From the NCBI RefSeq assembly GCF_964355755.1, contig NC_092675.1:7559812-7623811 (forward strand): a stretch of DNA of 64,000 nt, read 5' to 3'. Position 1 is the stretch's first letter, and every line of letters begins with the position of its first letter. Below the pieces are notes generated by a model. That model ran no database searches. It had not been told where the DNA came from and saw only the letters and a list, made by a program, of their open reading frames with translations. Below, piece by piece: positions 3,783 to 62,339 of the stretch. This stretch comes from Antedon mediterranea. Taxonomy: Eukaryota; Animalia; Echinodermata. The position numbers were made by a program, and so were the translations under genes.

Positions 3783-4194
3783 GTAAGTCATTTTACAATT
3801 CATTTGTAGCTTTCGATTTGCGATGACCTACGACCTAGGTCAGGTCGGGGGTCAGGTAAATCAATATGTGGTCGGTCGTCGCCTTGGCATAGAAACCATC
3901 AAATCTGTGTCGAGGTGGGGAACAAGGATTCACGTCACAATGTCCCTGCTGATGCGCACAATGAATTAACATGACGTAGTTTGGTCATCGGTCATTGGTT
4001 AAAAAAAAAAAACCGAAAGAAGCTCCCTATTATTATTTTTATATAAAAATCCCAGCCCTTTCTCTTTCTATTTAGCGAAATCGATCATACTGCATGCCTA
4101 CTTTACAATAACTCTGTAATGTGTATATAACTAGTGTGAAATAGTGCTGATGTGAAATCATTTCATTCAATTTCGTGACGTCATTATTTAATTA

Positions 4195-5386
4195 CGTAAG
4201 CAATTTGCAAACAACTTGCCCCTCTCTGCAGCGTATACAATATACAAGTTTAGATATAGGAATAGTGAATGTTTAGAATGAGTTGATTGCTGGGGATGTT
4301 TAGAATAATGTACGAACTCACTCAATTCAACGAATTAAAAAAAAAATTACTGTTCAATTGAATTAATAGCATGTAGAAGACTAATATGCCATGCAAACAT
4401 TCGGTGGGGCAGAGCAGTTTAAAACAAGGTGACCGTGCAATAGTAGTAGTTGAAATGGGAGAAAATAATGCACGACACGTGTGCGATACCAGCGAATCAA
4501 GTCAACACTTGACATGTGGGTTAAACTAGCAGTATATTACATTTAATGGCCTCTCTATAATATGCATAAAATATTTCTAATACGTTCACTATTCCATGTA
4601 TTGTCTAGAAGGAATTCGGTGAGCATAGGAACAAAAAAGGAATACAAATAATTCCATTCCTTGAGTTTCGATTTAAGTATTGTATTATATTGGTTATGTT
4701 CACGACTCATTGAAGACATTACAGTGTTGTTTATGTCGTAAGGTGTGGAATTTTTAACTTTAACTATCGGATTTATAAAAGTATTTTTTCGTAAGCAATT
4801 TGCAAACAACTTGCCCCTCTCTGCAGCGTATACAATATACAAGTTTAGATATAGGAATAGTGAATGTTTAGAATGAGTTGATTGCTGGGGATGTTTAGAA
4901 TAATGTACGAACTCACTCAATTCAACGAATTAAAAAAAAAATTACTGTTCAATTGAATTAATAGCATGTAGAAGACTAATATGCCATGCAAACATTCGGT
5001 GGGGCAGAGCAGTTTAAAACAAGGTGACCGTGCAATAGTAGTAGTTGAAATGGGAGAAAATAATGCACGACACGTGTGCGATACCAACGAATCAAGTCAA
5101 CACTTGACATGTGGGTTAAACTAGCAGTATATTACATTTAATGGCCTCTCTATAATATGCATAAAATATTTCTAATACGTTCACTATTCCATGTATTGTC
5201 TAGAAGGAATTCGGTGAGCATAGGAACAAAAAAGGAATACAAATAATTCCATTCCTTGAGTTTCGATTTAAGTATTGTATTATATTGGTTATGTTCACGA
5301 CTCATTGAAGACATTACAGTGTTGTTTATGTCGTAAGGTGTGGAATTTTTAACTTTAACTATCGGATTTATAAAAGTATTTTTTCG
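4195..5386. repeat. Near-perfect head-to-tail tandem duplication, 595-bp unit x2, in a TMEM175 intron
   Basis: CGTAAGCAATTTGCAAAC starts at both 4195 and 4790. I saw only one substitution (ccAGcgaatc vs ccAAcgaatc). Confidence 0.95.
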
Positions 5387-15440: not shown

Positions 15441-16596
15441 ATACAACGTTATGAAGGTTTGCTGCATTGACACAGGCCACCATAGTAATATTTTTTTTAC
15501 TGCAGTACAACATTACTACTGAAGCAAACATAAGCCAACCTTTTGTTGATTTTTGTTTTCATTATTTTTTGCTGTCGTCATGCTGCAAGTTTCTGCTTTT
15601 TAATTCAGTTGCAAGAAAGATTACGATGTGCATGATTTAAATAGATTACGGTAATTTTCGGTGGTGTAAAGTTTCGTTTTGACGCGGATATACAAATAAT
15701 ATTTTCGCTGATTTTTCTTGTACATCATAATGCAAAGAATGTTTACAAATATTTTTATCCAAAATAATAAAATACAAAACGAAACTTTTAAAAGAATAGA
15801 GAGGTATTTATTTATTACAACTATATATTTATTACATACATTTTTTTAGATTTCATGTTGGATTTGTTCTTTAGTTCTAGGCTTAGGAGTATGTAAAGCC
15901 TATTATTTTTTAACAGTACTTTACTGGAATGGAGCATATTGGATTTTCAGGCCCTTGTATATAACTTTTTTAACTATGGTTTGCAGCAATCCCCTCCGGT
16001 CATAATAATAATAATATTAATAATAATACAAGTGCTCAAATACAAGTGTGAGCAATTATAACAAATATAACTGATTTCTAACATCAGTGCAGAAATTGTT
16101 TATTATTTTCTTTCTCCACTTTTGGCCTAGGCTATATTTAATTTTTTTTTAAATAGGGTTTTTTTTCTTCAAATAAATGCTTCAGTCTCGTTGAAAAACA
16201 AATTTTAATTATTTTTATACTTCTAATTTATTCATGCATGAAAATGAATAATATAAATATTTTAAATAAAATGTTTAAAAAAATGTATTCTATTTTCTAT
16301 GTTTTGTCTCGTGTATCGACCTAAATTTAGTTTTTCTTTAATAGAATATAATAATATAGGCCTAATAATGATATAAACAGATACAATGAAGCCTGCATAA
16401 ACACAAAACACGATCGATCGTAAAGATTGAAATATGTCATCATTGGCCTATTCTTCACAAATATCTGTTTACCCTGCACTACTATAATAAATAAGTTAAA
16501 TTGCACTATTCGAAAATAATTATTTAGCTTGGAAATTTCTCATACGTTCGTTGATTCTAAAGCGTTTTCAACGATGCAGAAACAATCGTACCCGTG

Positions 16597-16819
16597 TCAT
16601 ACTTGCGTTGGCATACTGGGTGAGTGCATACCTGGAGCATATATAGACCTACGGGGAGCATACACAGGCCTACGGGGAGCATAAATAGGTCTACGTGGTG
16701 CATGCTTACTGGTTGTAGGCCTACTCGACGCCCTCTTTTCATCACTGGGAAGCATCTCAAAGACTACGTGACTTCTTTCAACTGTGCCAAGCTCTACTGT
16801 TCTATTTCGGATAGATTTT
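16597..16819 (-). CDS. EGF-like TM ligand paralog 1, exon 5 (cytoplasmic tail with 3x APRRP(I/V)Y repeats, ends PTQV*)
   Basis: ttttacAG acceptor, phase 2. Open to TGA at 16597-16599. The KSI start and TQV* end are shared with paralog 2. Confidence 0.85.
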
Positions 16820-17105
16820 CTGTAAAATTAAAATAAAGAATAACGTTGTTATTAGTCACAGAGAAACACAGTTTTCGGGGTTTAGTAATAACATAGACCT
16901 ATATCATAGGCTATAATTCTCTGGTTTCCCATGAATATTATTATGCCATTTTTGGTCCCATTTTATAAAAAAAAAATCACATTTTAGGTGCATTCACTTC
17001 AAAGATCAAATTTATACAATATACATAAATATTAAAAATAGGTCTACAACAATATAAATATAATTTGATAATTGGCCCATGCGTTTAATATTAAACAAGA
17101 CTTAC

Positions 17106-17208
17106 CTATATTTTAAATGGGCATAAACACCAAGAACAGTTATCAGGAGAGATGCAACGAAAATAATTCCAATAAAAACCATTGTTTTGTTAACATTCTG
17201 CAACGAAT
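17106..17208 (-). CDS. EGF-like TM ligand paralog 1, exon 4 (transmembrane helix)
   Basis: ccacAG / GTAAGT; DSLQNVNKTMVFIGIIFVASLLITVLGVYAHLKYR. Same 103-nt length as the paralog 2 exon. Confidence 0.88.
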
Positions 17209-17463
17209 CTGTGGAAAGACAGTGTTGTGAGAGGGATTATACCTATAGCGTCATATTTGACGTGATACTCTGATGTCATTTTACGGCATTTGTCTAATAA
17301 ACTGAACAAATTGTTGAGACCGAATATTTTAGTTGGGTATACAAAATACCAAAAGAAATGTATTAGCTACGAATGGGCAAGCCAATTCAATCAATGGGGT
17401 AGGGGTGGGGACTTTTAAAACAATTATAGTTTTACTCATCAACAGCTATACATTTGTACTCAC

Positions 17464-17543
17464 CTAATGATTTAAAATGATTAAAATTATAGCCTGAAGC
17501 ATCATACAACTCGCACTGTTTACCCGTATAATTGCTTAAACAC
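17464..17543 (-). CDS. EGF-like TM ligand paralog 1, exon 3 (EGF Cys5-Cys6 and stalk)
   Basis: tttttaAG / GTGAGT; CLSNYTGKQCELYDASGYNFNHFKSL. Confidence 0.88.
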
Positions 17544-17654
17544 CTTAAAAAAAAATGTTTAAAGTATTAACAACAACACATCGGTTAATCTGTCGGTCAA
17601 GAAACGTGTATATTAAACCTATTACCAAGAATATTAGAAAGTATTTATAGGAAG

Positions 17655-17789
17655 CTGCACTCTACACTATCAAAATAGTTTGACAAAAAAGTGTTATGTG
17701 CCCAAATCCTGTAGTGATATGACGTCATCGTCTATATGGTCACATCACATTTTTTTGTCACATAACGTTTGATAATGTAGACATAGCTT
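17655..17789. mobile_element. MITE family B copy (intronic)
   Basis: TCTACACTATCAAA...TTTGATAATGTAGACATAGCT inverted termini. Confidence 0.7.
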
Positions 17790-17876
17790 AACACTAATCA
17801 ATTAATAACACATTAATATTTATACCGATACTACAATATACCTTATGAAGGTGGATCAGTAAAATATCATACTTAC

Positions 17877-18096
17877 ACGCAGTGTGCTAATCCATTAGTT
17901 TCGTAACATGAACCGTGAATGCATGTTATTAGGTTGTCCACACTGCAAAGACGACGGGCTGTCGTCGTCGTCGAGTTTAATACGCTTTCCGTCAGCTCCG
18001 TTACCGTTCCAATTTCTGTAAAGACATCGGTTCCAGTTGTCACCGTGTCCAATAATGTCGTTGTCGCATTCACCAGTGCTGTCGATACGGTTGCGG
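17877..18096 (-). CDS. EGF-like TM ligand paralog 1, exon 2 (Thr-rich mucin-like region plus EGF Cys1-4)
   Basis: ttacAG / GTAAGT; ...NSTTTTARRLCSVDNLITCIHGSCYETNGLAHCV, phase 1-2. Confidence 0.9.
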
Positions 18097-18586
18097 CTGT
18101 AATGAAACGGAAAATCATTTAATCTAAAGTCGGGTTCCCACACAGTCACGTATGACGGATCGACCCGAAATACCAATCAAAAGCTGGTTCCAACTAGTAC
18201 ACGTAACTTTCACAACCTCAAGAATGCACAGACTACTGAACAGAAATTTGAAAATGTCGAGTGACAAATCATCCTAACTACGTTTGTGATTGGTCCAAAC
18301 TTGCAACATGCGTTGCGCGTACGTACAGCACTTTTTCTTAATTCTAGTAACTAGTTTGGTATGCCCGTCATACCTATGAGTATTATCGCTATGTGCTACA
18401 TTATCAATTAATTAGTGCAGGTCGGCGAGGTCTATAAAATATATTTTAATTAGGCCTATATGATAATCTTTTTAAAACCTAATTATTGATAATTATGTTG
18501 GAATCATAAGTTCATAAATTACATAAAAAAAAGAATAATGAATTATTAAGAAGCCTAATTTTGATAATAATTAATGCATAACTTAC

Positions 18587-18599
18587 TTATATTATTCAT
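18587..18599 (-). CDS. EGF-like TM ligand paralog 1, coding part of exon 1 (MNNI-T); spliced product 212 aa
   Basis: ATGAATAATATAA|GTAAGT. The same 13-nt structure is conserved in paralog 2; TATATAA lies upstream on the - strand near 18710. Confidence 0.72.
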
Positions 18600-19499
18600 A
18601 ATTCTTATGTTAAAATAAAACTCTGTAGTTCACTCAAATACAAATGGTTGCTGGTTACACATTAACTGCTTACTTCAAGTAATGCATGTTGACTGAAATC
18701 ACCAATTATATATGTTAGGTTCCACGCATGTGCAAACGAACCTGACGTGTTTTCTAATTATAATAAAAAGTGTAGGCCCATATTTATATTTGGCATATTC
18801 GGTGTGGTATCAAGTGCAAATTAACTTGTGAAGTCCGGTTAAAAAACACAAAAGCAAATTTCAGAATCACAATAGGTGTAAAACAATAAATAAACATCTA
18901 TTGTTTCCAATTTCAAAAAGAAAAAGTTGCTTGGGTGACACTGAAAGTGGGGAAGCCCACATGATTACGTCAATGTTAATTATGCATGACATCCACAATA
19001 GAGTAATTGTATATGTATGTTGGTAATAATAAGGGACTCTATATAACATGGGAGGGAAGGGAATAGTGTAATATGTTTTATACATTAGTCAGTGAATAAA
19101 ACAATAACCCTCCTAAAATATAACACGATATAAAAATAAACATCTTTTATTTATTTATTTATTTATTTATTTTATATATTTAGGCAAATTGTTTTCATTG
19201 TATTCGCTCGCGTTGCGCTGAAAGAGGGAAATCCCACGAACGTCAATTTAAAATTTCACTAGAACATTGTACCTATAACAATTGAATATTAATAGTCATA
19301 AGATACTTCCCTGGTAATTAATAGGACGAAATGTATAATAGGAAAATATGTATTATAAATAAATCGGCATTAATAAAAAGACATTCATAAAATAAGTACT
19401 ATTTCTATTAGTATATTTCTAAAATTAAATAAGGGAATTTTACGACAAATTGGCCAATTACAGTTTATTTTATTTATTTATTTTAATTTTATTTTATGT

Positions 19500-19770
19500 C
19501 TTTAGGTAATGTGGCCAAGAATTACCAATAGTAAATTAGTCACTGTCCTATCAGATTAGGTGGTAATCCCCCTGATACATTTTGTGAACCAGTTCACCGG
19601 GGTAACCCCCTCTTCTCGAATAATAAACTGGATTCTTTAAAGTGCACACAGGTTATACTACACTGGACCTACAGTTTATAGTCCTTATCCGAGAAGACTT
19701 GTTCCACCAACAGAACTAGGAGCGAGTCGGCATCGAACCCTTGCCGATGTTGTTGGCCTTAACCGCTCGT
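19500..19770 (-). mobile_element. tRNA-derived DeuSINE-like copy
   Basis: Reverse strand GGTTCGATGCC...TCTTCTCGGATAAGGACTATAAAC...TTCGAGAAGAGGGGGTTACCCCGGTG. Confidence 0.72.
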
Positions 19771-19799
19771 TAATTTTTCATAAAAATTCTTCGACACAG

Positions 19800-20770
19800 G
19801 CCTACATTAACTGGTTATGAATATGATAAGGACGATAACGCAATATGTACGCATTTTATTAAAATATTGTTATATTAATAATAATAATTTTATTTTAAAA
19901 AGTCGATATTGGCATTAAAAAAAGTCCCTGTACTTACAGTAATAGTTTTGACGTTTTTTAATTTTTTTATATAACTGGTTGCTATGAGTATAAAATAATA
20001 ATAATAACAATAAAACGTATATTAATTAATAATATTATCGCATAATTATATTTTGAATATGTTTTGCTCTGTACTATAATAAAGGTAATTTTGTTCAAAA
20101 AATGTCAATTTTATGTTATTATTATTTTTACATAAATTTGTATGATGATGACGCAATAATATGCACATATTGTAATATTACCGCATAACTGAATTTTAAA
20201 ACGTCGATATTTTGGTCATTTTTTTTAGAAACAAAGTTTCTGTACTATAGTACAGGGATTTTGATCACAAATGCACCAAATTGATATTTTTCGACCTAAC
20301 TATGATGATGTCTCTGTATAGTACATGGATTTTTTTCTCCACAAAAACACCAAATTTCGATGTTTTTATTTTTTGACTGGTTAGGTTAGGCCCACAACAA
20401 TATTAGGCCTATGGCATAACAGATAGTTTGGCCTTTTTCAAAACAAAAGCCCTGTAGGTACTTACCAATATAGTAAATGGATTTTTTCTCACAAAATAGG
20501 CAAATTTCGGTCCTTTTATATCTTTTGACATAACTGGTTATCTATAATGACTCAAGCTGATAACACAATATAGCAGTATTATCACATAGGCAATAATTGA
20601 AATTTGGCCCCCTTTTGAAAAAAAAACACATCCCCATTCTATAGTACAGGAACACTTATGTATTGATATAACTGTTTACTATATGACAATATTTTCAAGA
20701 AAAAAATCCCTGCCCTCAGAACAGGAATGTTTTTCTAAAAAAATCGGTCAATTGTCTAACTTTTCTTTGA
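19800..20770. repeat. Decayed tandem array (recurrent CCCTGTACTATAGTACAGG and ATAACTGGTTA motifs)
   Basis: Motifs recur about 6 times at 100-200 bp spacing. Confidence 0.55.
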
Positions 20771-21187
20771 CAACCTTAATTCAACTGAAGAAAGAACAAC
20801 ATATTATTTAGTGGAATTTTTTACATCACACTTTTATTCTAATAAAACTCAAAAATATATATAAATATATTAAATTTATCATTTGGTAAGTTATTCAATC
20901 AACGTTATATATGCCTTTACAAAACGATTATCGGTACAATTTAATACAATTTCACAATGGACTATTGTGGCATATTTAATTCTAATATATTTCCTGATTG
21001 AAATAAATGTCAAAATATAATACAAATATAATAAATAATAATAATAATATAAAGAAAATTAAATTAAAATTCATCATAATTGAAATTAATAAAACAATTA
21101 TTCGTCTACAAATTCTTTCACATTTTCAATATGAATATAATTTAGTGAAACAGAAAAGATTAAAATCTTATTCCAGGTCATATAATA

Positions 21188-21305
21188 AGCTCTATCTACA
21201 CTATCAAACTAATTTCACAAAAAAAGTGTGATGTGCCCAAATATCGTGTCCATGGACACAGCACATTTTTTTTGTCACACAAAGTTTGATAGTGTAGACA
21301 GAGCT
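21188..21305. mobile_element. MITE family B full copy
   Basis: TIR AGCTCTATCTACACTATCAAACT...AGTTTGATAGTGTAGACAGAGCT. Confidence 0.8.
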
Positions 21306-22281
21306 TTATAAAGAAATGTATTTTTAATGTTGAAACACACAATACAAAATCAATAAATTCCATGAATTTGTCCACATATCTAAATAGATCAAATAGAAAT
21401 CCAGGAAGTGTATAAGCCTAAAAATACTAATAAAATAAAACGTTTATGAAAGGAACCATTTGTTGTTGAATACTATCTTCTACTTTCGCTTTTCTAAGTT
21501 CAATGAATGCTGATTTTTTTAAATTTTATTGTGCTTTATAATGATGAACAAACACCCTGCTATAATAAAGGGAAATAATGTGATTTATAATATAAAAAAC
21601 TGATATCGCTATCCATTTGTTGTGCTCGAATCTCGAACCTGGTTTACGAACGTCGAGCGTACCTACTCTCGCTACCAGTTTTTACACATTTAGGCCTATA
21701 CCTTTTAAATATTATTTTTCTTATAATCTACCATCAATGGACAACCCACTGAATCTTTGAACTTGATCGTATGAATTTATTAATTCAGTCTAAATTAGTC
21801 AATCAACAACCGGTAATTAACTTAGGAAATGTCAAACACTACTTTTGGAGTATCATCATTGCCTTCTTAGTTATTGTTTTAAACAATTCAACAAACAACA
21901 ATATCATAGTATAATACTTAAACATGTATATTATATACGTACAAATTTATAAATTAAATATACTTAGGAAATAATAAATATTTCAGTTTAATATTTAGAA
22001 AGAAGTATAATAGATCTGAACTCAAATCAAGGTGTTTTTGTTGACGCTATAAAACGCATTGTTCTAACGATTAACACGCAATGCGTCATCAAGCAGCATT
22101 CCTTCTTCTTCAAAGTACACTTCAAGTCTTCCACTACTTTAATAAATATTGCACTGTCTTCACGTCTACATTAAATCCCCCTTTTCTCCGTATACAAATA
22201 GTGGATTGTACTTTCAAAATGCGTTTTTGACGATGGTTGTACGCTCTGCTTCAGTACCAACTATTTGTCGCCATTAGCACG

Positions 22282-22432
22282 TCATACTTGCGTCGCTGAC
22301 CCTGCACCGACCTTCGACGTTTTCGTATGGGAAAGCATATGCACGGCTTCGGTCCGCCTACCGTTTGTTACTGCGTCATCTTCATAAGATGCTTCATAAT
22401 CTTCCTTTATCTGACTTTGTTCAATAGATTTT
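22282..22432 (-). CDS. EGF-like TM ligand paralog 2, exon 5 (cytoplasmic tail, ends ATQV*)
   Basis: ttgtacAG acceptor; KSIEQSQIKEDYEASYEDD...GAGSATQV*. Confidence 0.87.
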
Positions 22433-23270
22433 CTGTACAAAGCAACAAAAATAGAAAAACAATAAAGATTTCGCACAATAATCTTTTTTTTTTACAAAAG
22501 CCATATTTTCGTACACCCATAATTATAATATAATTTATTAATAATTATACTCTACATTTAGTAAAATTAGTCTAATGGTATATATTTAGAAATTACATAA
22601 CCATGGAGAAATAATAATATTTCTCCATGGTTTAACGGAAATGGGGAAATAAACTGCTTAGCGATAGGCTGAAATCAATAATAAAATACATAGGCCTATG
22701 TATTTTAGCTGACACAACGTACCAACTTAATCCGTGTATTCTGGAGATTGAATATAATTACTGATTGTATAATTTAATAAAGGTAGTTGTTTGATGGTAA
22801 TTTAATAAACATATTTGTATACAGATAAAGTAAAACAGTGTTAAAAAAGACAATTGTTGTTAGACTGCCTTATTGCTTAGACCTACTCACAATCTCAGAT
22901 TGCAATACGTTGATAGGTGCATTAGCTTCTTTAAGCAACTATTTTGTCAAAATGTTATTGCAAAACCCACCTTTATTTCTATATTATAATAATAAACTAT
23001 TAACTACTATTTTCTACTTTGTTGTTTCAAAAATAATGTACAAAATGCATAAACCACAAAATAAAATAGCGATGCAATCGGGTACATGATAACCATGCCT
23101 TTAGTGCAATATTAAATAAGTATTAAATAAAACAATATTAAAATCGTATAATGTTACAGTGTACAACATATACATATACATGACAGACGTACCATGTAAC
23201 AGTATATCACTGTTATATAGTTCATATATTGTATGATACCGTATACTGTTATAACACAACAGGTACTGAC

Positions 23271-23373
23271 CTATGTTTCAAGTAGATATACACGCCAAGA
23301 ACAATTAATAGGAGAGTTATAACGAAAATAACTCCGATAGCAATCATTGCTTCGGTAAAATCCAAGAAGGAAT
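23271..23373 (-). CDS. EGF-like TM ligand paralog 2, exon 4 (transmembrane helix)
   Basis: atacAG / GTCAGT; DSFLDFTEAMIAIGVIFVITLLLIVLGVYIYLKHR. Confidence 0.88.
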
Positions 23374-23448
23374 CTGTATTGAAAAGGAGAGTATAGAAGT
23401 GATATAGAATATAGTCGGGCTAGTTGCATGGATTAACATACACCGGCA

Positions 23449-23630
23449 CCGTAAAACCTCAAAAGATGGGCTTATTTTCAAACAACTACAACTGAATGGG
23501 GCTAATGTTCATGTAAACATAACCGGACTACAAACAAATCCGCTTTATGATACATAACTTTTTTTTCGAGATCAACAATTAGGCCTATCAACTATATTCA
23601 ATTAAAGAGTCATTTTTGAGGTTTTACAGT
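23449..23630. mobile_element. Tc1/mariner-like MITE
   Basis: Inverted termini CCGTAAAACCTCAAAAGATG...CATTTTTGAGGTTTTACAG. Confidence 0.6.
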
Positions 23631-24388
23631 TTAATACAAAATAAATAATATATAAAAAAATAACATAAATAGTGTTTATTATGAATGAATGCATTTGGTT
23701 GCAATTTTATATAATAAAAGTATCTTTAGATTTCAGATAGATGAAATTATGAGAGAAGATGTTACAATTAGTTATAATGAAAACAATTCATCACGTGACA
23801 TACTGACGGTAACAGACAACATCTTTTACAAAACGCAGCAATGATATGGTATTAATGGATAATGGTTAGTAAACTAAGATTTGATGGAAGCAGCAGAGAT
23901 CACATTGTGCATGCATGGGTGCAGATTGGATGCTTTCAAGAAGAAAAGATCTACACCCACTAAAACCCCGGCAAAACTGCGTTCGCGATTGGTTTAAGCC
24001 ATGTTTTGTATCAAAGTCCCACGCAGGTGTGTGCACCCTACTTTTCTGCTTGAAATAATCTGCACCCATGGATATACGAGTGTGGACACTTATAGCAAGA
24101 AGAGGACCCAGACGACCTTACTTGGATTAACTTGAAGGGTCACGTGGAGGTTCATCATCTTTGAATTTGGTTTAAAAGAGGGGGTTGTTAACTCGGGTAA
24201 CAAATTGCATTCATGTTTCTTGATGATGATGATCTCTGAAATGGTGAAATACGACAATGCAATGACGACGGGAGGGCAAGCAGTGTGAAGATGTAGTTTG
24301 ACAAAAATTGCGTGCTCTCAACGTATTGCAAACTGGATTTATCGAAATAATGTAAAAATGCGTTAATGGCCAACAAAGGTTTACTCAC

Positions 24389-24465
24389 CATCCGTTGACG
24401 TTGATTCAAAGGTTAACGTTACGTCGAATAGCTCGCACTGTGGACCCTTACGACCTGTTGTACAT
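24389..24465 (-). CDS. EGF-like TM ligand paralog 2, exon 3 (EGF Cys5-Cys6 and stalk)
   Basis: ttttcatAG / GTGAGT; CTTGRKGPQCELFDVTLTFESTSTD. Confidence 0.88.
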
Positions 24466-24660
24466 CTATGAAAAACAAAAGATATTTTATTATAAATAGT
24501 TGGCCTACTAAGTTCAAGTCTGGAGGTTATTTAAATTCTGATAATGCCATTGCTTAACGCAGACAATTATTATTATTAAGCGAGCTCTAGTACCGGTATA
24601 CCATAACAAATCTCTTTAACTTTTTAAGAGAAAAAAGCATAGGTCCCTGATAATACTTAC

Positions 24661-24877
24661 ATGCAATGTGGCCTGTCTGCCACTTCGTAGCATGTGCCAC
24701 CATTGTAGCACGTTAGCAAGTTTTTCACACAGGGACGGGACATCGGATTTAGTACAGTTTCAATGGCAGCTATCGTAGTTGTAGGCAAGATATCGGTTGT
24801 TGCACTGGTTGCCGTTTCCAGTAACGTTGTTGCTGTGGTTTGGACGACAGTTTTTGCAGAAGCAGCTAGTGTTGTAG
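24661..24877 (-). CDS. EGF-like TM ligand paralog 2, exon 2 (Thr-rich region plus EGF Cys1-4)
   Basis: ctttacAG / GTAAGT; ...NPMSRPCVKNLLTCYNGGTCYEVADRPHCI, phase 1-2. Confidence 0.9.
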
Positions 24878-25113
24878 CTGTAAAGAAACAATATTTTCTG
24901 TTAAGCTTGAGACAGAAACATTTTTTAAACAATTAGATTCGTCAAATCAAGTATATAAAGCATCAAAATGTATCATTCCATGTCACATTCTTTCCTTTCT
25001 AACAGTATAGGTTTTTCCTATTTCAGAGTCTTAATAGTAGCTTTTGTTTAAAAACGAATAAATACTATAAAATAATGAATAGTAGAAAACATGTTAAATT
25101 TCACACAACTTAC

Positions 25114-25126
25114 TTATAATATTCAT
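25114..25126 (-). CDS. EGF-like TM ligand paralog 2, coding part of proximal exon 1 (MNII-T); spliced product 186 aa
   Basis: ATGAATATTATAA|GTAAGT with an in-frame stop upstream; homologous to 18587-18599. Confidence 0.72.
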
Positions 25127-28100
25127 AATGCTCACGAGATATTTCAAAAGACTAAAATGTTGTAAAAGATAGTTGACACGTTGATCTTACTTCAGGTGAT
25201 AATGCTTCAAACCGCATTACACCTCCAATATAAGCTCAGTTTGCCACCCACGCATGCGTACAACCAATTGATGTATACTCTATTAATACATTTAATTGTT
25301 TATACTATTATATTATTTACATTCATTGCGTTAAAACGGAAACTTACTTCCACATCCGGGAAACACAAAAACGATAATATAATGTTTGAATATCCCTGTA
25401 AAAATCAACATCTGTTGTTTGCTATTATAATTTAGGTTCTTTTCGAGTGACGGGTTTTGCTTTGAGTGATGGCGCCGAAAAGGGGAACTCCCACATTAGG
25501 CCTACGTCATCTCATGTGAAGAAAATGTTTTATCATATTTGTGATAATACCCCATTACCAAATATGTTAAATTATTTTATGAGGTACCACCATCATTAGG
25601 CCTATAAGGGATTGCTTTGATTGATGACGTCGAAAGGGGATCTCCCACATTAGACATGACGTCATGATAAATTAAATGATTTTATTATGTTTATGTTGTT
25701 GGCACCATATCCCGTCTACCGTATCAGTGACACGACAACACTTTAGGAGGATATTGCAGACTATTATTAGACCCTGGTAATAATGATAGTAAGTAAAGTT
25801 TTGTAGCCGATTATCGTATCTAATGTTTCCAGTTTCCATAGGCAAATTCCATGACACAGCTTCACATGTGTTTCATATGTAACGCCTGTATCGTAGACCG
25901 TAACATAACATTTAATCTAGCCTCTTATGATACAGGTACAACATGCGATGCTTCCTGAATTACGCAACAGATCTATTTTTGTAATTTCCAAACGAACGTT
26001 TCTATCCTTTCAAGCCCGAACTTGCTTTTATCTGACGCGTTATTGCAACACACACTTAGCACCTCAAATGTCACTCCACTCAATATATTCAACAATCTTT
26101 ACAAAATTCAACAAAAGAATGACTTAAATCTGAGTGTCTCGGCTTTAATTTATCTGTAGTAATGTTTACCGATATAATAATGTTAGGATTCTCTTTGTTT
26201 GTGTGGTTTGTTGTATTAGATTGTGTATACTTTACTAGGAAGTACAAGTTTGCATTAGATGATGATGTTGAAACTCCCGGGACAGACTGTCGCCAGAACA
26301 AAAAGAAAACGCCAACGCATCATTGGACGAAACTACTTTGAAATTTGACACTGTATATTAGGTAACATTTCTGGTGCTATAGGCTACGTATCCGTAGCTA
26401 GCCGCTAAAGACGTCGTGCAAAACGATGTATACGCAACGCAAACGAGTTGACCAATGACAAGCAACGTTTCGAATAATTTATCGCTTGTGATTGGTCAAA
26501 TCACTAACGTTGCTCTTCGTCTTTGCATTGAGCCCAGGTGGGAAGGCTCAGTAAGCATTCGTGTAAACCATAAATCGACTGTGACTGTCGTCTGGAACCG
26601 AAAACCATCAATCAATGTGTTTACGATATACAGCAGCGCGCCATTTGTAATGTAGCGCGCCATAGTAGACCAGTAGCAGTGTTACGCAATGTAATTGTTT
26701 GTTTACTTTTAATGTACCGTGGGAAATTATAACACCAACAAATCCCAAATAACTGACATATCAAAATATGACGAAAACAGACCTTGTATTCAGACCTCGC
26801 ATACCAATTTAATAAAGAGAACGAAAGAACATGTAGAACAAAATAAACCCTTACTTATATGAACAATAAAATCGAAATTACTCTATAAATATTATAAATA
26901 CACAAACCTAGTATACAAACATTCTAAAAATAATATATTGTTTAAAGGCCAGGTCCGGGCAAAAAATGTCTATTGATCATACATTCCAATAATTATCGAT
27001 CTATAGTTTCCCCTATGTTTCATAATTTTTTGGGATTTTATTTGTGTTACACGAGCTTATTGAAAATAAGCACTTTCTTATCAGTGGGGGGATAGTTCAA
27101 ATTACACAGTAAAATCTCTATTCTTTTATACACAGATTTTGTAAATAGAGAGGCATTTTAAAAAGCTATGAAAAATAAACGGTGTGGTAAAAAATGTTAT
27201 CAGATGACTAAATATAGGTAATATAACTTGAATTTTACATTTCTGGTATTTTTATTCAACTTCAGATTTTTATTTTCATGCTATAGCAAAAATTATCCAC
27301 CGTATATCCACTATCTTTTTTCACCTTCTAGGGAGTCACCAGACATGTTATTACATTAGGTTAAACTACCTAACTACTAAAAAAAAGTCTTCCTGGTTTT
27401 TATGGCAGAATTATGCCAAATTTTGTATTTGACCATATTAAGGGAAATTCATGTTTTTTCATCTTGATTTCTGTTACAAATATTTTATTTATGTACAATT
27501 AACCAGATATTATATTTAGAATTCATGCCTGTACCTGAGCTTTAAGAACAGGGATTTTAAACAAAATATTTGGAATGTGCAAAATTAGCGCTATTGAATT
27601 GTACCTGTAATTAATTAGGGCGCAGTCAATGGTGTGACTTTTTATTATCGGTGGCAAAGTGGTATTATGTAAGCCTAGAATCAATAAGAGCCGTATATAG
27701 CCTATGTTGTTCTTTTAAATTTCATACCATGATTTGCAAATATCTTTATTTATCTTTTCTGTACAGATCACAGCTACAGTCGTTCGTAAAACGCGGTGGA
27801 CGTATTAGGAAATTGCGACCATTTTCCCCCTTAAAATTATTTCAAAATATATTTGACTTAGGCCTAATGTTTAACTATGTTTTAGGTAGGCCTACACTAC
27901 TTAGCATTGACAAGTCATAGGCCGGTATTTTTGGAAAATTATAGACGTCCTAAAATGTAATGATTGATTGATTTTAACAGCCATTTTATTAATGCAAATT
28001 AAGAGGTTGTGGACATATTTTTGTTGGTTGACATTTTGAATTTATCATAACCTGAAATTTACCTAACAAAAATCATAGACACTTTTACCTAAAAAATGCA

Positions 28101-30212
28101 TTGTTTTATTTTTCAGAAGTTTGTAATAGCTTACACGTCCAATTAGCATGACAGCTTCTGCCCGGGGTTTTATTGTTTTATATTATTATTCCTTGGTTCC
28201 ACAATCTTAAGGTTATGATTACAAAAGTAACGGTTTTTGGCGCTTTAGTTGTCAGAATAATCGTCGTTGGTGACAACCTTAAGTGACAAAGAACACATTT
28301 AATCATACTGAGCAATCGATTTCATTATAGACTTAACAAAAATTCCCACATATAACATTATATCAGCTTATCTTACTGAAAAAGGGGGCTTAAGACCCTT
28401 TGAATTCAAACAATTGTATGAATAAAAAAGGACAAAACGGAATCGGAATGTAGACAACGACAGTCTGTCACTTTGTTACAAGTTATCATTGGAAATATTT
28501 TACTTTTATTAAAATAATTTGATAATAATAAACTTTTGATTAAAGAAACAAAAAAAGAGGAAGTAAAGATTGACATTGCTATTAGATATACAGGGTACAA
28601 GTACGTGAATACAAAGAAACCACCGTGTGAAAAATTCCAGCCCATTAAACCATATTTTAACAATTTTAACCATCATAATAATGAAAGTATTATATTCAAT
28701 ACAAATCGATACGGATCAGATACAGAACTAAGTGTGGTGTGATTATTAGAAATAGACCTAGATTTACTGTTTGCATTTGCACCGTGGGATAAGGGAAATC
28801 ATTTGATAATTGAATAATAATAATAATACAATATAGAATTAAGTTTATCAAACGACGGAGATATCATGATCCAACCTTAGTAAGTTGCCTTTTTAATGCA
28901 AATCATTAGGTCCTAAAGTTAAAACTCATCAAAGCTCTGGCTTAGTTAAAGTCAAAACAGCGCCACCTTTAAAGAGCCTTCCACGCTGGAATGTCTACAC
29001 ATTGGTACAATATTAGTAATGAAGAAAACCCCATATGAATAAAACCTATACCAAAAGGCTATGTTTAGTATATTTTGATACGTAAAAATAATCATGTGCA
29101 TTACTAAAAATAAAAACAGAAAAATCCTATAATTCTTTAAGCCTATATTATCTTATATCTAGTATTTAAACATTACATTGTTTGTATTCCACAACAAAAG
29201 AATGATCCTGCAATCTTATGGGAAATTACAAGTATATAATTTTAAATAGTATAATAGTAATAACATCGGTATGCGACAGGAATAATGGTGGGAGACACGT
29301 TTGAAAGAGAAAAATTACTCTCTTTTGTTTGAAAAATGCAACCAGCGATACATGACGTAGGGTTAATTTATTGCTGAAGATGATGTAAATTTATACAGTA
29401 TTACGAAACGACCGACAATAATTATTAAAAAATTACGAAGCTAATAATACTTATTTTTTAATATGTAATAGTTTAATTAGATTAGAAATTAATATTACAA
29501 AGCTTTGTATTCAATTTTACTGGCTGGTTTGACTAATGTCGTAAAATGTATAACCATATACGTACACACATTAGGCATAGAACATTAAATCTATACTGAA
29601 ATTTAATTAATTAATTTGAAACGATAAGAAAAATTCGCCCCAACCGAGATTCGAACCCGGACCTTCTGCTTGATGTGCAGATATATTGCTAATTGATATT
29701 TACAAATTTAAAAATACAATGTCATTCCATCACTGTCTACTACTACACCTTTACACTACACCGACACCGTACCTCCAAACGTTTAGTATACCATCGCTAT
29801 TCCTAAATTAACTAAGTTATATTGCACAAAAATACATTGCGATTCCAAAATTAGGAAACTGATCGAAAACATACTGGAAAAAACGCAGTAATGCGATTAC
29901 CTACACATGTTATTAGCAAGACCAGCATTATTTCTTTATTTTAATTTCAAAATAATCTTTTTTCTGACGTCATAATTAACTTTAACTGATATTTAATAAT
30001 TATCATAATTGTCAAAATATGAATGAATGTGTTGTATGCAGTTTACAGGTGTCTCTAATTCACAGCGAGCCATGACACCTGCGTAATGTTATGCTAATTA
30101 TTAATAAGGTCAACGAATAGGCCTATAAATACAAAATCAAAACAACAACAAAGAAAAACAATTTTAATATAAGTATGTTCTTTAGTCCCAGTTGACGTCA
30201 TGAGACACTCAC

Positions 30213-30279
30213 GTTGAAATGCAGATGGATACATTTGGCAGGACTTGTATACGTGCACGTCAACTTTGTGTTCATTCAT
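30213..30279 (-). CDS. Candidate alternative first coding exon (MNEHKVDVHVYKSCQMYPSAFQ), phase-1 donor
   Basis: ATG...CAAC|GTGAGT, 67 nt; AGCCAATC box on the - strand near 30310. No homology support. Confidence 0.4.
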
Positions 30280-32921
30280 GCTGTCACTGCATGAGAAGCC
30301 GTTTGTGATTGGCTATTTATGTTATAAATTTACGCTCAGTCATGCGCAATACACTACTTGTCTGAAATTGAACCCGGTGGTCTTTGAGCTCATCAGACAC
30401 ACTTTGCCACGCGAGTTCATAAGGGTTTTTTATTGAAAATGTTGTTTACACGTTACAATCTTGTTCCTGTCCATTTTAAAAATCAACACAAACACTTTAA
30501 TACACAAATAACACGTTAACGAGGTTATTATGTTTTTAAAAGATAAATTCCAATCTTAATTCCTTTTCTTCATGTATAAATAAAATACAATAACTTTTGA
30601 TAATTTTGAATTTCGTCCACGGAATAATATCAATAGTTTTTCCTATTGACGCCGGTCAAACAACACATTTTATTCAAAATTCATCAAAACAAATTTTATT
30701 AGTCTGCCTAATGAAAGGACATACATTCCCGAAGATGTATAAAAAGTCTTAAATAATACCATATATTATAAGTTAAAGTAAACCAGGGTGCTTGTTAGTG
30801 TACCTTAGTTAGTTTTATTAGGTACTTGTTAAACAATTTAAAAAATATATATATTTGAATTTAAGCACGTAGACACTATTTTATGTCCTAGTTTAAATTG
30901 TTATTCTTGATTTTTTTAAATACGGCCTTTTTTGGTTTTATTCTATATTTTGCTCTAACTATTTTTTAGATAAATAATTTAGAAAAAAATGCATATTTAA
31001 AAGATTTTAAAAACAATATTTATATTTATTATTAGAAACGCAATTACTACTTTTTAATTGATATGATTTTCTGTTTCGTGATCGTAGTTAATTCTCCATA
31101 ACACACGAACTTATTTATGCATGACCATTTTAAGTATACAGTACCCCCGCGTGCTACCCCCTTTTACACCTAAAATTAAACAATATCAATTAATGAATAT
31201 CTATTTCTGACATTAAAATATCCTAATGCTTCCCCATGTAAACAATCACGTGGCCGTATCCGCCAATCACATATGAGATATTTCACTCAACTATTAAGTA
31301 TTTAACTTTAAGTCAATAAATATAGTATAGCCCTAGTAGTAAAGTAGTACTAGTATTAGTAAATATAAAGTATTTCCCTTATAGATTGAACGTATTTGTG
31401 TTACTTTTAAAGTGTGTTAAGTGTTTCCCTGTATGAAATAGTGATTATGCTGGAAGATGGATTTAAATTCATGAATTATTACATTTTGTAAAGCCCCTAT
31501 CACCAGCCGTTGATTAATTAAAGTGATAATAATATTCCTATATTAAACTTAAGGAAAGTCCCCGGTCTTTACCATCGTCACAGACGTGAAGTCTTCAAAA
31601 GAAAACAATAATGCTAGGTTAAAACCTGAGGGAAGCCCCTACCCGGTCTTTGTTGTCAAACAAAGTTGATAGCCTCGGTTGCACGATTAGCATGAAAAGA
31701 AATACGTAATTCATTAATTTAAACATTATATCAAAAACATCATTATTAGTCATTATTTACAATTATTTTCTTAATCTAAGAATCCAGTGGAAAGTTCAGT
31801 ATTCATCCCCTGTCATAGATTTGGAAAATAGTACCCACGTGGACATTCTGACCCTTCGGGGCATGTGTAAACGTACAGCATGAAATAACAACACATTTAT
31901 TACTATCATTAGATCTGCACCTTGAATTGAATTTGTAGTCAATTACTATCAATGGTGGTTGTACCAAGTGTTTGATTGCCTTGGATATAGGCAGCTTTAA
32001 CATATCATGTTATTGTTATAAATTGTGTTTCTAGATGGTTCAGGAACATATCATACTGTACATACTGTGTAACCATAGTAACCGGTAAGGGATGATGACA
32101 CGTGAGAGTTAAATATAATGAATCCATTATTTTAAAATAAAAATAAATATATTTTATGCCGTAGGTAAATATGCATATTATCATTTAATGACAGTTAATC
32201 GTATAGGTTTGCTCAATTGAAAGCTCGCGAGAAGGTCGTCCCTAATAAGGTTTGATTAAGCTATTGAAAAGGCAATCGTCATGCTATCTGTTTGTATTAG
32301 ACCAATCCTGGCTGGTATTGCATTATAATACAGCTATATTGCAATTTCGGAAGTTGTTCAGGTATGACGAAATAGTGATAGTGCACGTTGCGCACACACC
32401 AGATACTTTACGATTATGTTTTATAGTCTACACGCACAGTAAACGCGTACGGCGTTTATAGTAACGCATTCGAGTCAGCCTTGAGGTATAATACAGATCA
32501 TGCGGCGTTAAAGATATCAAACTATTAAGGTAGGACCAAACTAATCGATACAGCTAATGGTTAAGGAATGTTATGTTGATAATAGGGGATTCTTTTATTT
32601 ACCTTCACACAAGCATTCTATGTACTTAGATTAAGCAGGTACAATATAGAGTAAAAGGCACTATTTCCTCGCGACAACATAAAACTACTTAAACCGCGTA
32701 AGGCGGTAAACTCTCAAACATTTTTAAAGCTAACAGCAAAACCACATCGATTAAAGCAAAACATTACATATTTACATTCTCCCCTGGTGTGTTTATTTAT
32801 AATACATATTATGACACTTCACCTTCGATCCTCATTTTCACACACATCGGGCCTACCGCTATTGAAACAGCAATGTCAATGTGACTGGGTTATAAAAGTG
32901 ATTAACATCAGTGTATCTTAC

Positions 32922-33339
32922 CTTCTAATTCAGCGGCTATCTTGCGTATTTTGCGCAAAATCTGCTTTGAAGCATGGTACACGGGTCCTTGAAGTTCAAA
33001 TTCTGTGTTCGAATCATTTATCGCTACTATAAAAAATAAATATGCATTGTCTGGCATTATTTTAGATCCACATGCGTCTAAAATTGTTTCTTGCGAAAAT
33101 ACTTCTATGCTAGAAAATTTCAATCCTTTGGTTGTGAATTCCTTTTGGACTTTGACTTTTAAAATGTTATTTTCAACTTTTCGTACGGCTGCTTTTACTA
33201 TTAAACTGTTCCGCGTAATATTGTCCAGTCGTATATCTTCCGAACATTTATTTTTAGTAATAAGCCTAGTCTTAGTAGGCATACTGGTTACACTCAGATA
33301 CAATGTTAAACACATACATAGTTGGATATATCGAAACAT
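32922..33339 (-). CDS. First exon: signal peptide plus neuregulin-2/Vein N-terminal-like (agrin NtA/TIMP-type OB-fold) domain
   Basis: MFRYIQLCMCLTLYLSVTS signal peptide. The motifs LIVKAAV, LKVKV, C-x9-YLFFI and FELQGPV...ILRKIRKI parallel NRG2 VVVEGKV, LVKV, C..RYIFFL and LKKEVGKIL. Donor GAAG|GTAAGA, phase 1. Confidence 0.8.
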
Positions 33340-33437: not shown

Positions 33438-33485
33438 TATTTTATACCATGAACTTCAACCGGAAATTGGTTTAGCCAATCAGAA
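33438..33485 (-). promoter_or_regulatory. Putative core promoter of the NtA/NRG-like exon (TATAAAA, ETS-like CCGGAA, CCAAT box)
   Basis: Reverse-strand TATAAAA near 33440-33446, ACCGGAAA near 33459 and AGCCAATCAG near 33475, about 100 bp upstream of the ATG. Confidence 0.45.
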
Positions 33486-34779: not shown

Positions 34780-35820
34780 TGGATGAAAACTAAATCAAGA
34801 CAACAAATTGTTCTCTTAAAAAGACGTATTACGTTCAGAAAAAAAATCTTTTATGTCATGGGAACATTTCAAAAAACATTATAATATTCAATGTAATTGT
34901 TTACAGTACCAAGGTATAATTAATTCAATAAAATATAAATAATTTGACTAAACTGCAAACACCAATAATTCCTTTTCATTTAGATATTTTTATTAAAAAT
35001 CCAACAGGGTGTAAAGCTTTTTACAACAAATTTAAAGAAAATGTTTTTGTCAGACCGAAAAGTATGAGAAAATGGGAAGACAAAATTAATGTCAATAAAA
35101 CAGATGAGGAACTGAAACAAATGTACAAACTTCCTTTTAAATGTGTCAGAAAAACAAACCTACAATGGTTCCAATATAGAATAAATAATAGAATAATTGC
35201 AACAAATGGTTTTTTGACAAGAATTGGTATTCGACAAAATGAAGCATGTACTTTCTGTGACAATGTACCTGAAACACTTCCTCATCTGTTTGTAAGCTGC
35301 AAATATGTAAAACCACTATGGTCAAATATAGAACACAAAATTAGTAGGCCTATTCCCTTTAAAAAAATAACTTTTACAATTGATTCGATTTTGTTTGGAG
35401 ATATTTCACGATGTTTTTCTGTTAATACAATTATTATTCTTACAAAGTATTTAATTTATAAATGTAGAATTGGTAAAACTCTGCCAAGTATTAAGGCTTT
35501 AAATATTTATATACGAAATTATTTAATGATGTTAAGGTATATTGCAAGGCAAAATGGAGAATCAAATGATTTTGAGAAACAATGGGTAGACTTTATTAAT
35601 TTATTGTAATATTAATCTTTTTTACTGCTGTTATAGACACGTCTTTTTGTTTATTTAAAAAAAAATGTTATTGCATGTATAAAATACAACATGATAAAAG
35701 TACAATTGGGCCTTTGTTTATAACACTGGGAGAGTGTCAATCCTCAATGCATTCATTAAAGCACCAATATGTTATTGTATGTATAAAATACAACATGATA
35801 AAAGTACAATTGGGCCTTTG
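34780..35820 (+). mobile_element. 5'-truncated L1/Tx1-clade LINE (3' end of ORF2, zf-RVT region; ORF 34944-35609)
   Basis: LQWFQYRINNRIIATN..L...CTFC....ETLPHLFVSC zinc knuckle and W..F C-terminus; duplicated 52-bp block in the 3' UTR. Confidence 0.85.
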
Positions 35821-62213: not shown

Positions 62214-62339
62214 TCGTTGATACTAAAATCATCAAAAATCTATCTATAGTAGGCCTAAATCATGAGTTGATTCCGAATTATCAAGACTCATTAATTAATC
62301 AGCAATAGTACATACCGCTAATGAATTCCAATGTTCTTC

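What the first reader, a model, noticed from the sequence alone, without database searches (positions are those of the whole stretch)
16597..33339. Ig-less neuregulin-like locus: NRG2/NtA-type first exon is phase-compatible with tandem mucin-EGF-TM-PDZ modules
Seen: a first exon (33339-32922) encoding a signal peptide and an OB-fold-like domain ends in a phase-1 donor. I found no Ig-domain exon downstream, and the next clear minus-strand internal exons (24877 and 18096) both have phase-1 acceptors. Known: NRG2, type II NRG1 and Vein carry this N-terminal domain followed by Ig and EGF; in NRG2 the domain ends in CxxC, which is missing here (IAAELE). Inference: a neuregulin-related gene that lost Ig, gained a Thr-rich spacer and duplicated its EGF-TM-tail module. 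The long N-terminus could then be spliced to either module.
Basis: partly seen in the sequence, partly recalled or inferred. Interest (0 to 1): 0.85.

Follow-up and report, generated by a model that had tools for sequence, protein, structure and literature searches.

The report
Ig-less neuregulin-like ligand pair in crinoids
This feather-star locus holds two tandem genes for likely EGF-receptor-type growth factors, each with its own tiny first exon; in public gene models only the upstream gene also has a long first exon, whose neuregulin-like domain would tether the ligand to the extracellular matrix, and nothing found here shows that exon joining the second gene.

Summary
The exons, phases and missing Ig domain are real. 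Public Antedon mediterranea models match the window exactly: long exon + module A (321 aa), short exon + A (224 aa), short exon + B (212 aa, separate gene). The Anneissia japonica orthologue has the same long and short forms and no Ig, so the design is conserved in two crinoids. Long exon + B is in frame (347 aa), but that follows from the duplication; no such protein was found, and A likely ends at its own poly(A) site near 20830. The long exon is likely the NtA/NTR-fold domain of NRG-type ligands (ESM leads, by-eye motifs, one of two weak models; no Pfam hit). Missing CxxC is not distinctive: Vein and sea-urchin NRG lack it too. The EGF domains have the ligand-type intron but Gln for Arg41 and Thr for Tyr13, so receptor activation is uncertain. 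Verdict: a new variant of EGFR-ligand design; the 'either module' splice is unsupported.

The parts
33440..33480 (-). Promoter-like motifs about 100-140 nt upstream of the E1 ATG: ATTGG, CCAAT and TATAAAA
   Evidence: Sequence read directly; function inferred
32922..33339 (-). E1: long coding first exon; likely signal peptide (about aa 1-19) and NtA/NTR-like domain with two Cys (C33, C90); phase-1 donor
   Evidence: first 139 aa of XP_071953621.1; 54% to Anneissia; fold leads
25127..25520 (-). Upstream/5'UTR region of short first exon A0, alignable to the region upstream of B0; likely internal promoter
   Evidence: Local alignment score 97 against a null maximum of 63; 0 of 543 windows reach it
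25114..25126 (-). A0: 13-nt coding first exon (MNII, phase 1), no signal peptide
   Evidence: A0+A1+A2+cassette+A3+A4 equals public isoform X3, 224 aa; Anneissia X3 begins MATIT at the same junction
24661..24877 (-). A1: Ser/Thr-rich spacer (37% S+T) and EGF Cys1-4; phase 1 to 2
   Evidence: Pfam EGF E 0.0003 on the spliced protein
24389..24465 (-). A2: EGF Cys5-6 and stalk; intron lies between Cys4 and Cys5
24122..24235 (-). 114-nt phase 1/1 cassette exon adding 38 aa to the stalk of A
   Evidence: Found by scan; present in public X3, absent from X2
23271..23373 (-). A3: transmembrane exon
22282..22432 (-). A4 coding part: 50-aa tail ending TQV (class I PDZ-binding pattern, label recalled)
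20827..22281 (-). Likely 3'UTR of gene A, ending just past an AATAAA at 20838
   Evidence: Contigs of likely-RNA run X1 cover 20827-22434 and stop at 20827; AATAAA list
18600..18979 (-). Upstream/5'UTR region of B0, homologous to that of A0; likely promoter of gene B
18587..18599 (-). B0: 13-nt coding first exon (MNNI, phase 1)
   Evidence: B0+B1-B4 equals XP_071952346.1, 212 aa; the pattern ATG-N9-A|GTAAGT occurs only at A0 and B0 on either strand of the window
17877..18096 (-). B1: Ser/Thr-rich spacer (42% S+T) and EGF Cys1-4
17464..17543 (-). B2: EGF Cys5-6 and stalk
17106..17208 (-). B3: transmembrane exon
16597..16819 (-). B4 coding part: tail with repeated YAPRR and TQV end; 3'UTR runs on past 15800
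   Evidence: an X1 contig piece starts exactly at 16819

Best explanation
The locus holds two tandem copies of an EGF-transmembrane-short-tail unit, each with its own 13-nt first coding exon, that likely act as two separate genes for membrane-bound, probably shed, EGFR-type ligands; public models join a second, long first exon to the upstream copy only, and that exon likely descends from the N-terminal domain of NRG-type ligands and would tether the ligand to the matrix. Shown: exon structure, phases, exact match to three public protein models, the same long/short choice in Anneissia, no Ig. Inferred mechanism: promoter choice makes either (i) a signal-peptide form NtA-like/spacer/EGF/TM that after shedding would be held in basement membrane and act at short range or for longer, or (ii) a short form without signal peptide, inserted through its TM as a reverse signal anchor, that would release a freely diffusing EGF. 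The 38-aa cassette would change stalk length and so shedding; the TQV/SQV end would bind PDZ proteins for sorting. B arose by duplication of the unit from the internal promoter onward and makes only the short form. Odds: two-gene architecture about 0.8; E1 homologous to the NRG N-domain about 0.7; EGFR agonist about 0.55; matrix tethering about 0.4.
For: Exact translation matches to XP_071953621.1, isoform X3 and XP_071952346.1. B protein carries no isoform suffix and is a cluster of 1. A0/B0 upstream DNA homologous. Anneissia LOC117114363 has X1 (long, 325 aa), X3 (short, MATIT, 168 aa) and X2 (long, ends before TM, 257 aa). Likely-RNA run X1: A-side contigs stop at 20827, just past AATAAA at 20838; a B contig piece begins exactly at the B4 acceptor with 105 unlaid letters before it, which fits B3 (103 nt) plus 2 (the join itself is inferred). 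Intron between Cys4 and Cys5 and EGF about 25 aa from the TM meet the Stein and Staros ligand criteria (PMC1618406 passages). Best PDB sequence hit of the EGF part is TGF-alpha, E 0.012; the only non-crinoid hit of the profile search is spitz, E 0.17. E1: ESM top hits NtA 0.91, then TIMP/NTR; whole protein top hit neuregulin 2a cluster with NRG2_N, 0.82; model 1 gave NtA at Foldseek ranks 2, 4, 5, 6 and NTR/NtA-fold chains in VIA ranks 1-7. By eye, Anneissia SKVILRQVRKI matches Lineus NRG SKKTLRQVRGI at 8 of 11 and YVFFL is shared. Agrin uses an N-terminal choice to add or drop laminin-binding NtA (PMC6966886 passages); SISS-1 and NRGs lack a signal sequence and likely use the TM as reverse signal anchor (PMC11686035 passages).
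Against: No Pfam NtA or NRG2_N hit for E1 in either species and no PDB sequence hit. Both folds are low confidence (pLDDT 47.8 and 44.9); no Foldseek hit reaches E 0.001, best VIA Z is 7.6, and model 2 gave only generic OB folds with no NtA in the 50 ranks shown. ESM scores are leads: 159 of 256 shared features is under the 170 typical of same-family hits, and 0.82 is within what shuffled proteins reach. HMMER over 1.84 billion representatives found no NRG or Vein: 1 of 5 hits is real, 4 are unrelated repeat proteins. All three crinoid EGF domains have Gln at the near-invariant Arg41 position and Thr at the aromatic Tyr13 position (PMC1618406 passages). Jagged and factor IX rank third and fourth. 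The E1 junctions were not seen in reads; the gene models are predictions whose read support I could not see. No binding, shedding or localisation data exist.
Confidence: 0.6

Rival explanations
1. One reading: one gene in which E1 is spliced to either module A or module B, giving two long ligands with a shared N-terminal domain.
For: E1+B1-B4 is open for 347 aa. B1 lies 14.8 kb from the E1 donor with a good acceptor. Collections are incomplete: the expected 359-aa isoform (E1+A+cassette) was not listed either.
Against: Phase match follows from duplication of A1. B has its own first exon and upstream region. A likely ends at its own poly(A) site about 2.2 kb before B0. No E1+B protein: 1 hit among 124 candidates for E1, 1 among 413 for B1, 4 among 7994 for the profile. 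One search showed no loose end or joint at 18096, but its tables were filled by repeats and cut, so it is silent on this.
Confidence: 0.12
2. Chimeric origin: the EGF-TM-tail unit with its short first exon is an EGF-type (TGF-alpha/epiregulin/spitz-like) gene that captured a copy of an NRG N-domain exon upstream; no Ig was lost from this gene.
For: The unit is self-sufficient with A0/B0. Its tail is 50-75 aa, while the TM-bearing invertebrate NRG entries read have far longer tails; human epiregulin has a short tail ending PQV. EGF part is nearest TGF-alpha, betacellulin, epiregulin, spitz and a gurken-like cluster (second hit). E1 is one exon with a phase-1 end, easy to shuffle.
Against: NRG1 itself uses many alternative first exons, some without Ig (PMC11360300 passages), and NRG3, NRG4 and the amphioxus entry lack Ig, so loss within an NRG is also ordinary. 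EGF-domain similarity has little phylogenetic signal (PMC4914847 passages).
Confidence: 0.4
3. Not an agonist: the EGF domain has lost receptor contacts, and the proteins act as decoys, weak partial agonists or TMEFF/mucin-like surface proteins; E1 then serves as a general NTR/TIMP-fold matrix or protease-binding domain.
For: Gln for Arg41 and Thr for Tyr13 in 3 of 3 crinoid EGF domains. Mucins, meprins and IMPG2 share the intron and position without being proven ligands. Top VIA rows are NTR domains of Sizzled, AceES-2 and complement, not only NtA.
Against: Tomoregulins carry Tyr, Gln or His at that site and one was reported to stimulate ErbB4; the Echinococcus NRG entry also has Gln there. 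EGF-to-TM region is 59% identical between the two crinoids. E1 lacks an N-terminal Cys at the predicted mature start, which TIMP inhibition needs (PMC3439447 passages).
Confidence: 0.3
4. E1 is a separate single-exon gene that reads through to the stop at 32908, or splices to an overlooked Ig exon or another gene.
For: An in-frame stop follows 4 codons after the donor. The junction was not seen in reads here.
Against: Public models in two crinoids join this domain to the spacer at the same residue (LE|A). The donor is among the strongest in the locus, score 6.4. No Ig motif in the window.
Confidence: 0.05

Closest known systems
NRG-type EGFR ligands (human NRG2, Drosophila Vein, spiralian and sea-urchin NRG)
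   Same: Signal peptide, then a roughly 110-aa N-domain with matching motifs (by eye), one EGF near a TM, intron between Cys4 and Cys5.
   Different: All 12 entries with this N-domain have an Ig next; the crinoid genes have none. Tail is short. Arg41 and Tyr13 positions are changed.
EGF-type ligands (TGF-alpha, epiregulin, betacellulin, spitz, gurken)
   Same: Single EGF, short stalk, TM, short tail ending in Val; nearest EGF hits.
   Different: The crinoid gene A has an optional NtA-like domain, and the short forms lack a signal peptide.
NRG1 alternative first exons; NRG4
   Same: Promoter choice sets the N-terminus; Ig-less, signal-peptide-less forms; a TM-less form (Anneissia X2).
   Different: No Ig exon at all in the locus, and the short-form unit has been duplicated as a second gene.
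Agrin N-terminal switch (secreted NtA form versus transmembrane form)
   Same: An N-terminal choice adds or removes an NtA-fold domain; the domain has one Cys pair (agrin Cys2-Cys74; E1 has C33 and C90).
   Different: Agrin's NtA binds laminin by experiment; E1 binding is untested, there is no sequence-level hit, and the rest of the protein is unrelated.
Tomoregulin/TMEFF
   Same: Juxtamembrane EGF with the ligand-type intron and no Arg41.
   Different: TMEFFs carry follistatin domains, not an NtA-like domain.
Anneissia japonica LOC117114363 (XP_033113906-8)
   Same: Orthologue of gene A: same long and short starts and same junctions; 54% (E1) and 59% (EGF-TM) identity.
   Different: Has a TM-less isoform not seen among the Antedon proteins retrieved; no B orthologue was found, a weak negative.

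Membership tests
EGFR/ErbB ligand (Stein and Staros criteria) | Splice site between Cys4 and Cys5 of the EGF module | tested here: met
   A1|A2 and B1|B2 introns, phase 2; criterion
EGFR/ErbB ligand (Stein and Staros criteria) | EGF module close to a TM segment | tested here: met
   Cys6 at aa 222, TM from about aa 247; 38 aa more with the cassette
EGFR/ErbB ligand (canonical) | Arg before Cys6 (EGF Arg41) and aromatic before Cys2 (Tyr13) | tested here: not met
   Gln and Thr in A, B and Anneissia; conservation described
EGFR/ErbB ligand (canonical) | Binds and activates EGFR | not testable with these tools
   No crinoid EGFR sequence or assay available
NRG-type ligand (PMC4914847 definition) | Ig I-set domain before the EGF | tested here: not met
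   absent from public models in two crinoids
NRG-type ligand | N-terminal NRG2_N (PF25518)-type domain | tested here: inconclusive
   No Pfam hit; ESM lead 0.82; motif match by eye
NRG-type ligand | Long intracellular Neuregulin (PF02158) domain | tested here: not met
   Tails of 50-75 aa, no PF02158 hit at E up to 10
NRG-type ligand | Orthology by synteny or tree | not testable with these tools
   No genome held; no host gene recognised elsewhere in the window
Agrin NtA domain (PF03146) | Sequence profile match | tested here: not met
   No Pfam or PDB sequence hit
NtA/NTR/TIMP OB-fold | Five-strand OB barrel with C-terminal helix | tested here: inconclusive
   Model 1: Sizzled NTR Z 7.6, rmsd 3.0, 104 aligned; NtA Z 4.2, rmsd 5.1, 89 aligned. 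Model 2: best Z 3.5, unrelated chains. Both pLDDT under 50
Agrin NtA domain (PF03146) | Laminin binding | not testable with these tools
   Needs a binding assay
Shared-exon multi-cassette gene | Cassettes lack independent starts and a common exon splices to each | tested here: not met
   Each module has its own first exon; only E1+A is on record

The most novel reading that the evidence does not exclude
Crinoids carry a third design of EGFR ligand: an NRG-derived, laminin-binding NtA-fold exon that works as one shared matrix anchor and is spliced onto either of two non-canonical (Gln41) EGF cassettes, each of which can also be made untethered from its own promoter, giving four ligands from one locus and showing that the NRG N-domain functions without Ig.
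Probability: 0.1. Interest if true: 0.72.

Novelty: new variant of a known kind. Interest (0 to 1): 0.42.

Why it matters
EGFR ligands are usually sorted into EGF-type and NRG-type by the Ig domain (PMC4914847). This gene has the N-domain seen in NRG-type ligands but no Ig, and is the same in two crinoids, so it falls between the classes. It is a natural construct for asking what the little-studied NRG2/Vein N-domain does alone, with a built-in control in the short isoform. The conserved loss of Arg41 and Tyr13 predicts either a matching change in crinoid EGFR or a decoy role. The proteins are already in RefSeq as 'uncharacterized', the range is two species so far, and the shared-exon idea that drew the high first score has no support, so interest is moderate.

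Tried and rejected
No whole genome was held, so no synteny or search for a canonical crinoid NRG. Run search: no RNA holder on record; X1 is only guessed to be RNA. The one lay covered 15800-23560, so neither E1 junction was laid; its joint and loose-end tables were filled by high-copy repeats. Pfam on single exons gave nothing for E1; phmmer on PDB gave 0 hits. The two-sequence fold was no better than the single-sequence one and did not repeat the NtA hits. P0004-P0007 were dropped as unrelated repeat proteins. The word-based protein search missed the Anneissia protein although it lay in range, so its blanks for other echinoderms or an Anneissia B are weak. A CCAAT-containing element at 26422-26544, first taken as a possible promoter, is a dispersed repeat. 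An in-frame ATG at 18118 could give B a signal-peptide-like start (MIFRFITAA...), but the public model uses B0 and X1 has no cover in the 18131-18389 bin. 150 of 158 other open stretches of 58 aa or more were scanned; 2 of 150 hit Pfam, both retroelement. No complex was folded, since no crinoid EGFR or laminin sequence was at hand. Published NRG sequences were compared by eye only; no alignment, profile or tree was computed with them. Earlier-findings look-ups returned nothing. Ten paper searches listed no title or abstract on this crinoid gene or on an NtA fold in neuregulins; the library lacks most subscription journals, and the Vein domain paper PMC1470887 was not held.
Full report
Observation. 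E1 runs 33339-32922 on the minus strand, from an ATG with an in-frame stop upstream and CCAAT/TATA-like motifs 100-140 nt before it, to a phase-1 donor. Two four-exon modules follow: A (24877-24661, 24465-24389, 23373-23271, 22432-22282) and B (18096-17877, 17543-17464, 17208-17106, 16819-16597). Both have end phases 2,1,2,0 and encode a Ser/Thr-rich spacer, one EGF, a TM and a short tail ending TQV. No Ig exon was found by motif scan of six frames, Pfam on 39 open stretches in the E1 intron, splice-site scan or Pfam on 150 of 158 other long open stretches.

Source and public models. The E1 search returned one protein, named Antedon mediterranea 'uncharacterized, isoform X2', XP_071953621.1. 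E1+A1-A4 translates to it exactly. The B1 search returned a separate 212-aa protein, XP_071952346.1, that begins MNNIT. That start led to a 13-nt coding exon at 18599-18587 and to its twin at 25126-25114 in front of module A; the pattern ATG-N9-A|GTAAGT occurs only at these two places on either strand. Isoform X3 (224 aa) uses A0 plus a 114-nt cassette at 24235-24122. The 450 nt upstream of the two ATGs align with score 97; 0 of 543 control windows reach it, maximum 63. The duplicated unit therefore starts at the internal promoter region, not at the 24877/18096 acceptor. These models are predictions, and I could not see their read support.

Conservation. HMMER over 1.84 billion representatives gave 5 hits at E up to 0.001; one is real, Anneissia japonica LOC117114363, and four are unrelated repeat proteins. 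Its isoforms are long (325 aa), short (168 aa, MATIT at the same junction) and long without TM (257 aa). Identity is 54% over E1 and 59% over EGF-TM; A versus B is 46% and B versus Anneissia 43%. A versus B gives dS about 0.88 and dN about 0.46 over 85 codons: both copies are intact, B is old or fast, and the timing is unresolved. So the Ig-less long form and the long/short choice are shared by two crinoids.

Transcripts. No run is on record as RNA. X1, a guess, behaves like RNA over 15800-23560: contigs over the A 3' region (20827-22434) have depth 136-313 against 4-8 for the listed intron pieces, the last stops at 20827 just past AATAAA at 20838, and a B contig piece starts exactly at the B4 acceptor with 105 unlaid letters before it, the length of B3 plus 2; three runs of one other sample cover the stretch evenly outside repeats. 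This is one study, contigs only, and the tool warns that depth does not rank parts of a gene. It suggests both modules are transcribed and that A ends before B starts. It says nothing on the E1 junctions.

The 'either module' claim. E1+B is open for 347 aa, but B1 is a copy of A1 and inherits its phase. No protein with E1+B appeared in three searches where exact words would be shared. The collection is incomplete, since the expected 359-aa E1+A+cassette form was not listed, so the splice is not excluded; I put it at about 0.12.

What E1 is. Pfam and PDB sequence searches give nothing. ESM features rank NtA first for the domain (0.91, 159 of 256 shared), then TIMP/NTR, and a neuregulin 2a cluster bearing NRG2_N first for the whole protein (0.82, lead only). 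A single-sequence model (pLDDT 47.8) put agrin NtA at Foldseek ranks 2, 4, 5, 6 with E 0.05-0.12 and NTR/NtA-fold chains in the first seven VIA rows, best Z 7.6. A two-sequence model (pLDDT 44.9) gave only generic OB folds. The supplement of PMC4914847 prints NRG-type sequences; of 19 entries in parts 14-15, 12 have this N-domain, all followed by Ig (read by eye). Shared motifs are an early Cys, a D-x-C, Y-x-F-F-L and a basic C-terminal helix (Anneissia SKVILRQVRKI, Lineus SKKTLRQVRGI). Of the 12, 6 end in CxxC, 2 have two Cys otherwise spaced, and 4 have none (Vein, Owenia, Schmidtea, sea urchin). That type II NRG1 has the same domain is recalled, not checked; the passage I saw calls it kringle. 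I judge homology to the NRG N-domain likely, about 0.7, not shown.

What the EGF is. The intron between Cys4 and Cys5 and the position near the TM meet the criteria of PMC1618406 (also PMC11686035). The same paper calls Arg41 almost invariant and Tyr13 aromatic in ligands; all three crinoid domains have Gln and Thr. Nearest sequences are TGF-alpha (E 0.012), with Jagged and factor IX close behind, and spitz (E 0.17). The short tail fits EGF-type ligands better than NRG-type. So the C-terminal half looks EGF-type and the N-terminal exon NRG-type; Ig loss and exon capture both remain open.

Mechanism, mostly inferred. Gene A would make a signal-peptide form with the NtA-like domain and a short form without one; the hydropathy scan finds an N-terminal hydrophobic stretch only in the long forms. 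By analogy with agrin, where an N-terminal choice adds laminin-binding NtA (PMC6966886; PMC3439447), the long form would hold shed ligand in the matrix, and the short forms, inserted by a reverse signal anchor as proposed for SISS-1 and NRGs, would release free ligand. The cassette would tune shedding, and the TQV end would bind PDZ proteins (label recalled). Gene B would supply a second short ligand. E1 is basic (20 K+R, 14 D+E), which fits matrix binding but does not show it.

Papers seen: PMC4914847 passages, supplement passages and supplement parts 14-15; PMC1618406 passages; PMC11686035 passages; PMC11360300 passages; PMC6966886 passages; PMC3439447 passages; PMC4451617 passages, nothing bearing; all others as search listings only. 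Supplement figures on domain architecture are not held as text and may bear on whether Ig-less N-domain ligands were noted.

Verdict. Real and conserved, a new variant of EGFR-ligand design that does not qualify as an NRG-type member (no Ig, no long tail) and may work like one. The shared-exon reading is unsupported. Interest 0.42.

Noticed in passing
window 16632-16700 (-), B tail: Three tandem 7-aa repeats around YAPRR in the B tail, absent from A; possible Tyr-phosphorylation or docking sites.
   Followed up: no
window 18118-18050 (-): In-frame ATG just inside the B0-B1 intron gives a signal-peptide-like start (MIFRFITAATVSTALVNA); no equivalent in A.
   Followed up: partly
window about 25190 and 18675 (-): A GAA|GTAAG donor-like site about 70 nt upstream of both short-exon ATGs is conserved in the A0/B0 alignment; no in-frame ATG precedes it.
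   Followed up: no
window 34932-35606 (+): LINE-type remnant (zf-RVT, E 2.5e-08) 1.6 kb upstream of E1 on the opposite strand.
   Followed up: partly
window 61989-62222 (-) and 53946-54782 (+): Reverse-transcriptase remnants: the first hits RVT_1 (E 3.3e-07); the second is a 279-aa open frame that looks LINE-like by eye but has no Pfam hit.
   Followed up: partly
window 17646-17789, 21181-21308, 19500-19750: Very high-copy short repeats, the first two partly palindromic, with summed contig depth far above their flanks; one lies in the likely 3'UTR of gene A.
   Followed up: no
window 4185-4791 and 4782-5386: Tandem duplication of about 600 bp at 99.3% identity; recent duplication or assembly artefact.
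   Followed up: no
Anneissia P0003 (XP_033113907.1): Isoform X2 ends before the TM, a predicted secreted NtA-like/EGF form; no such form among the three Antedon proteins retrieved.
   Followed up: partly
PMC4914847 supplement, parts 14-15: Most invertebrate NRG-type entries carry an N-terminal domain before the Ig that the passages I read do not name; the sea-urchin and acorn-worm entries also have several EGF repeats.
   Followed up: partly
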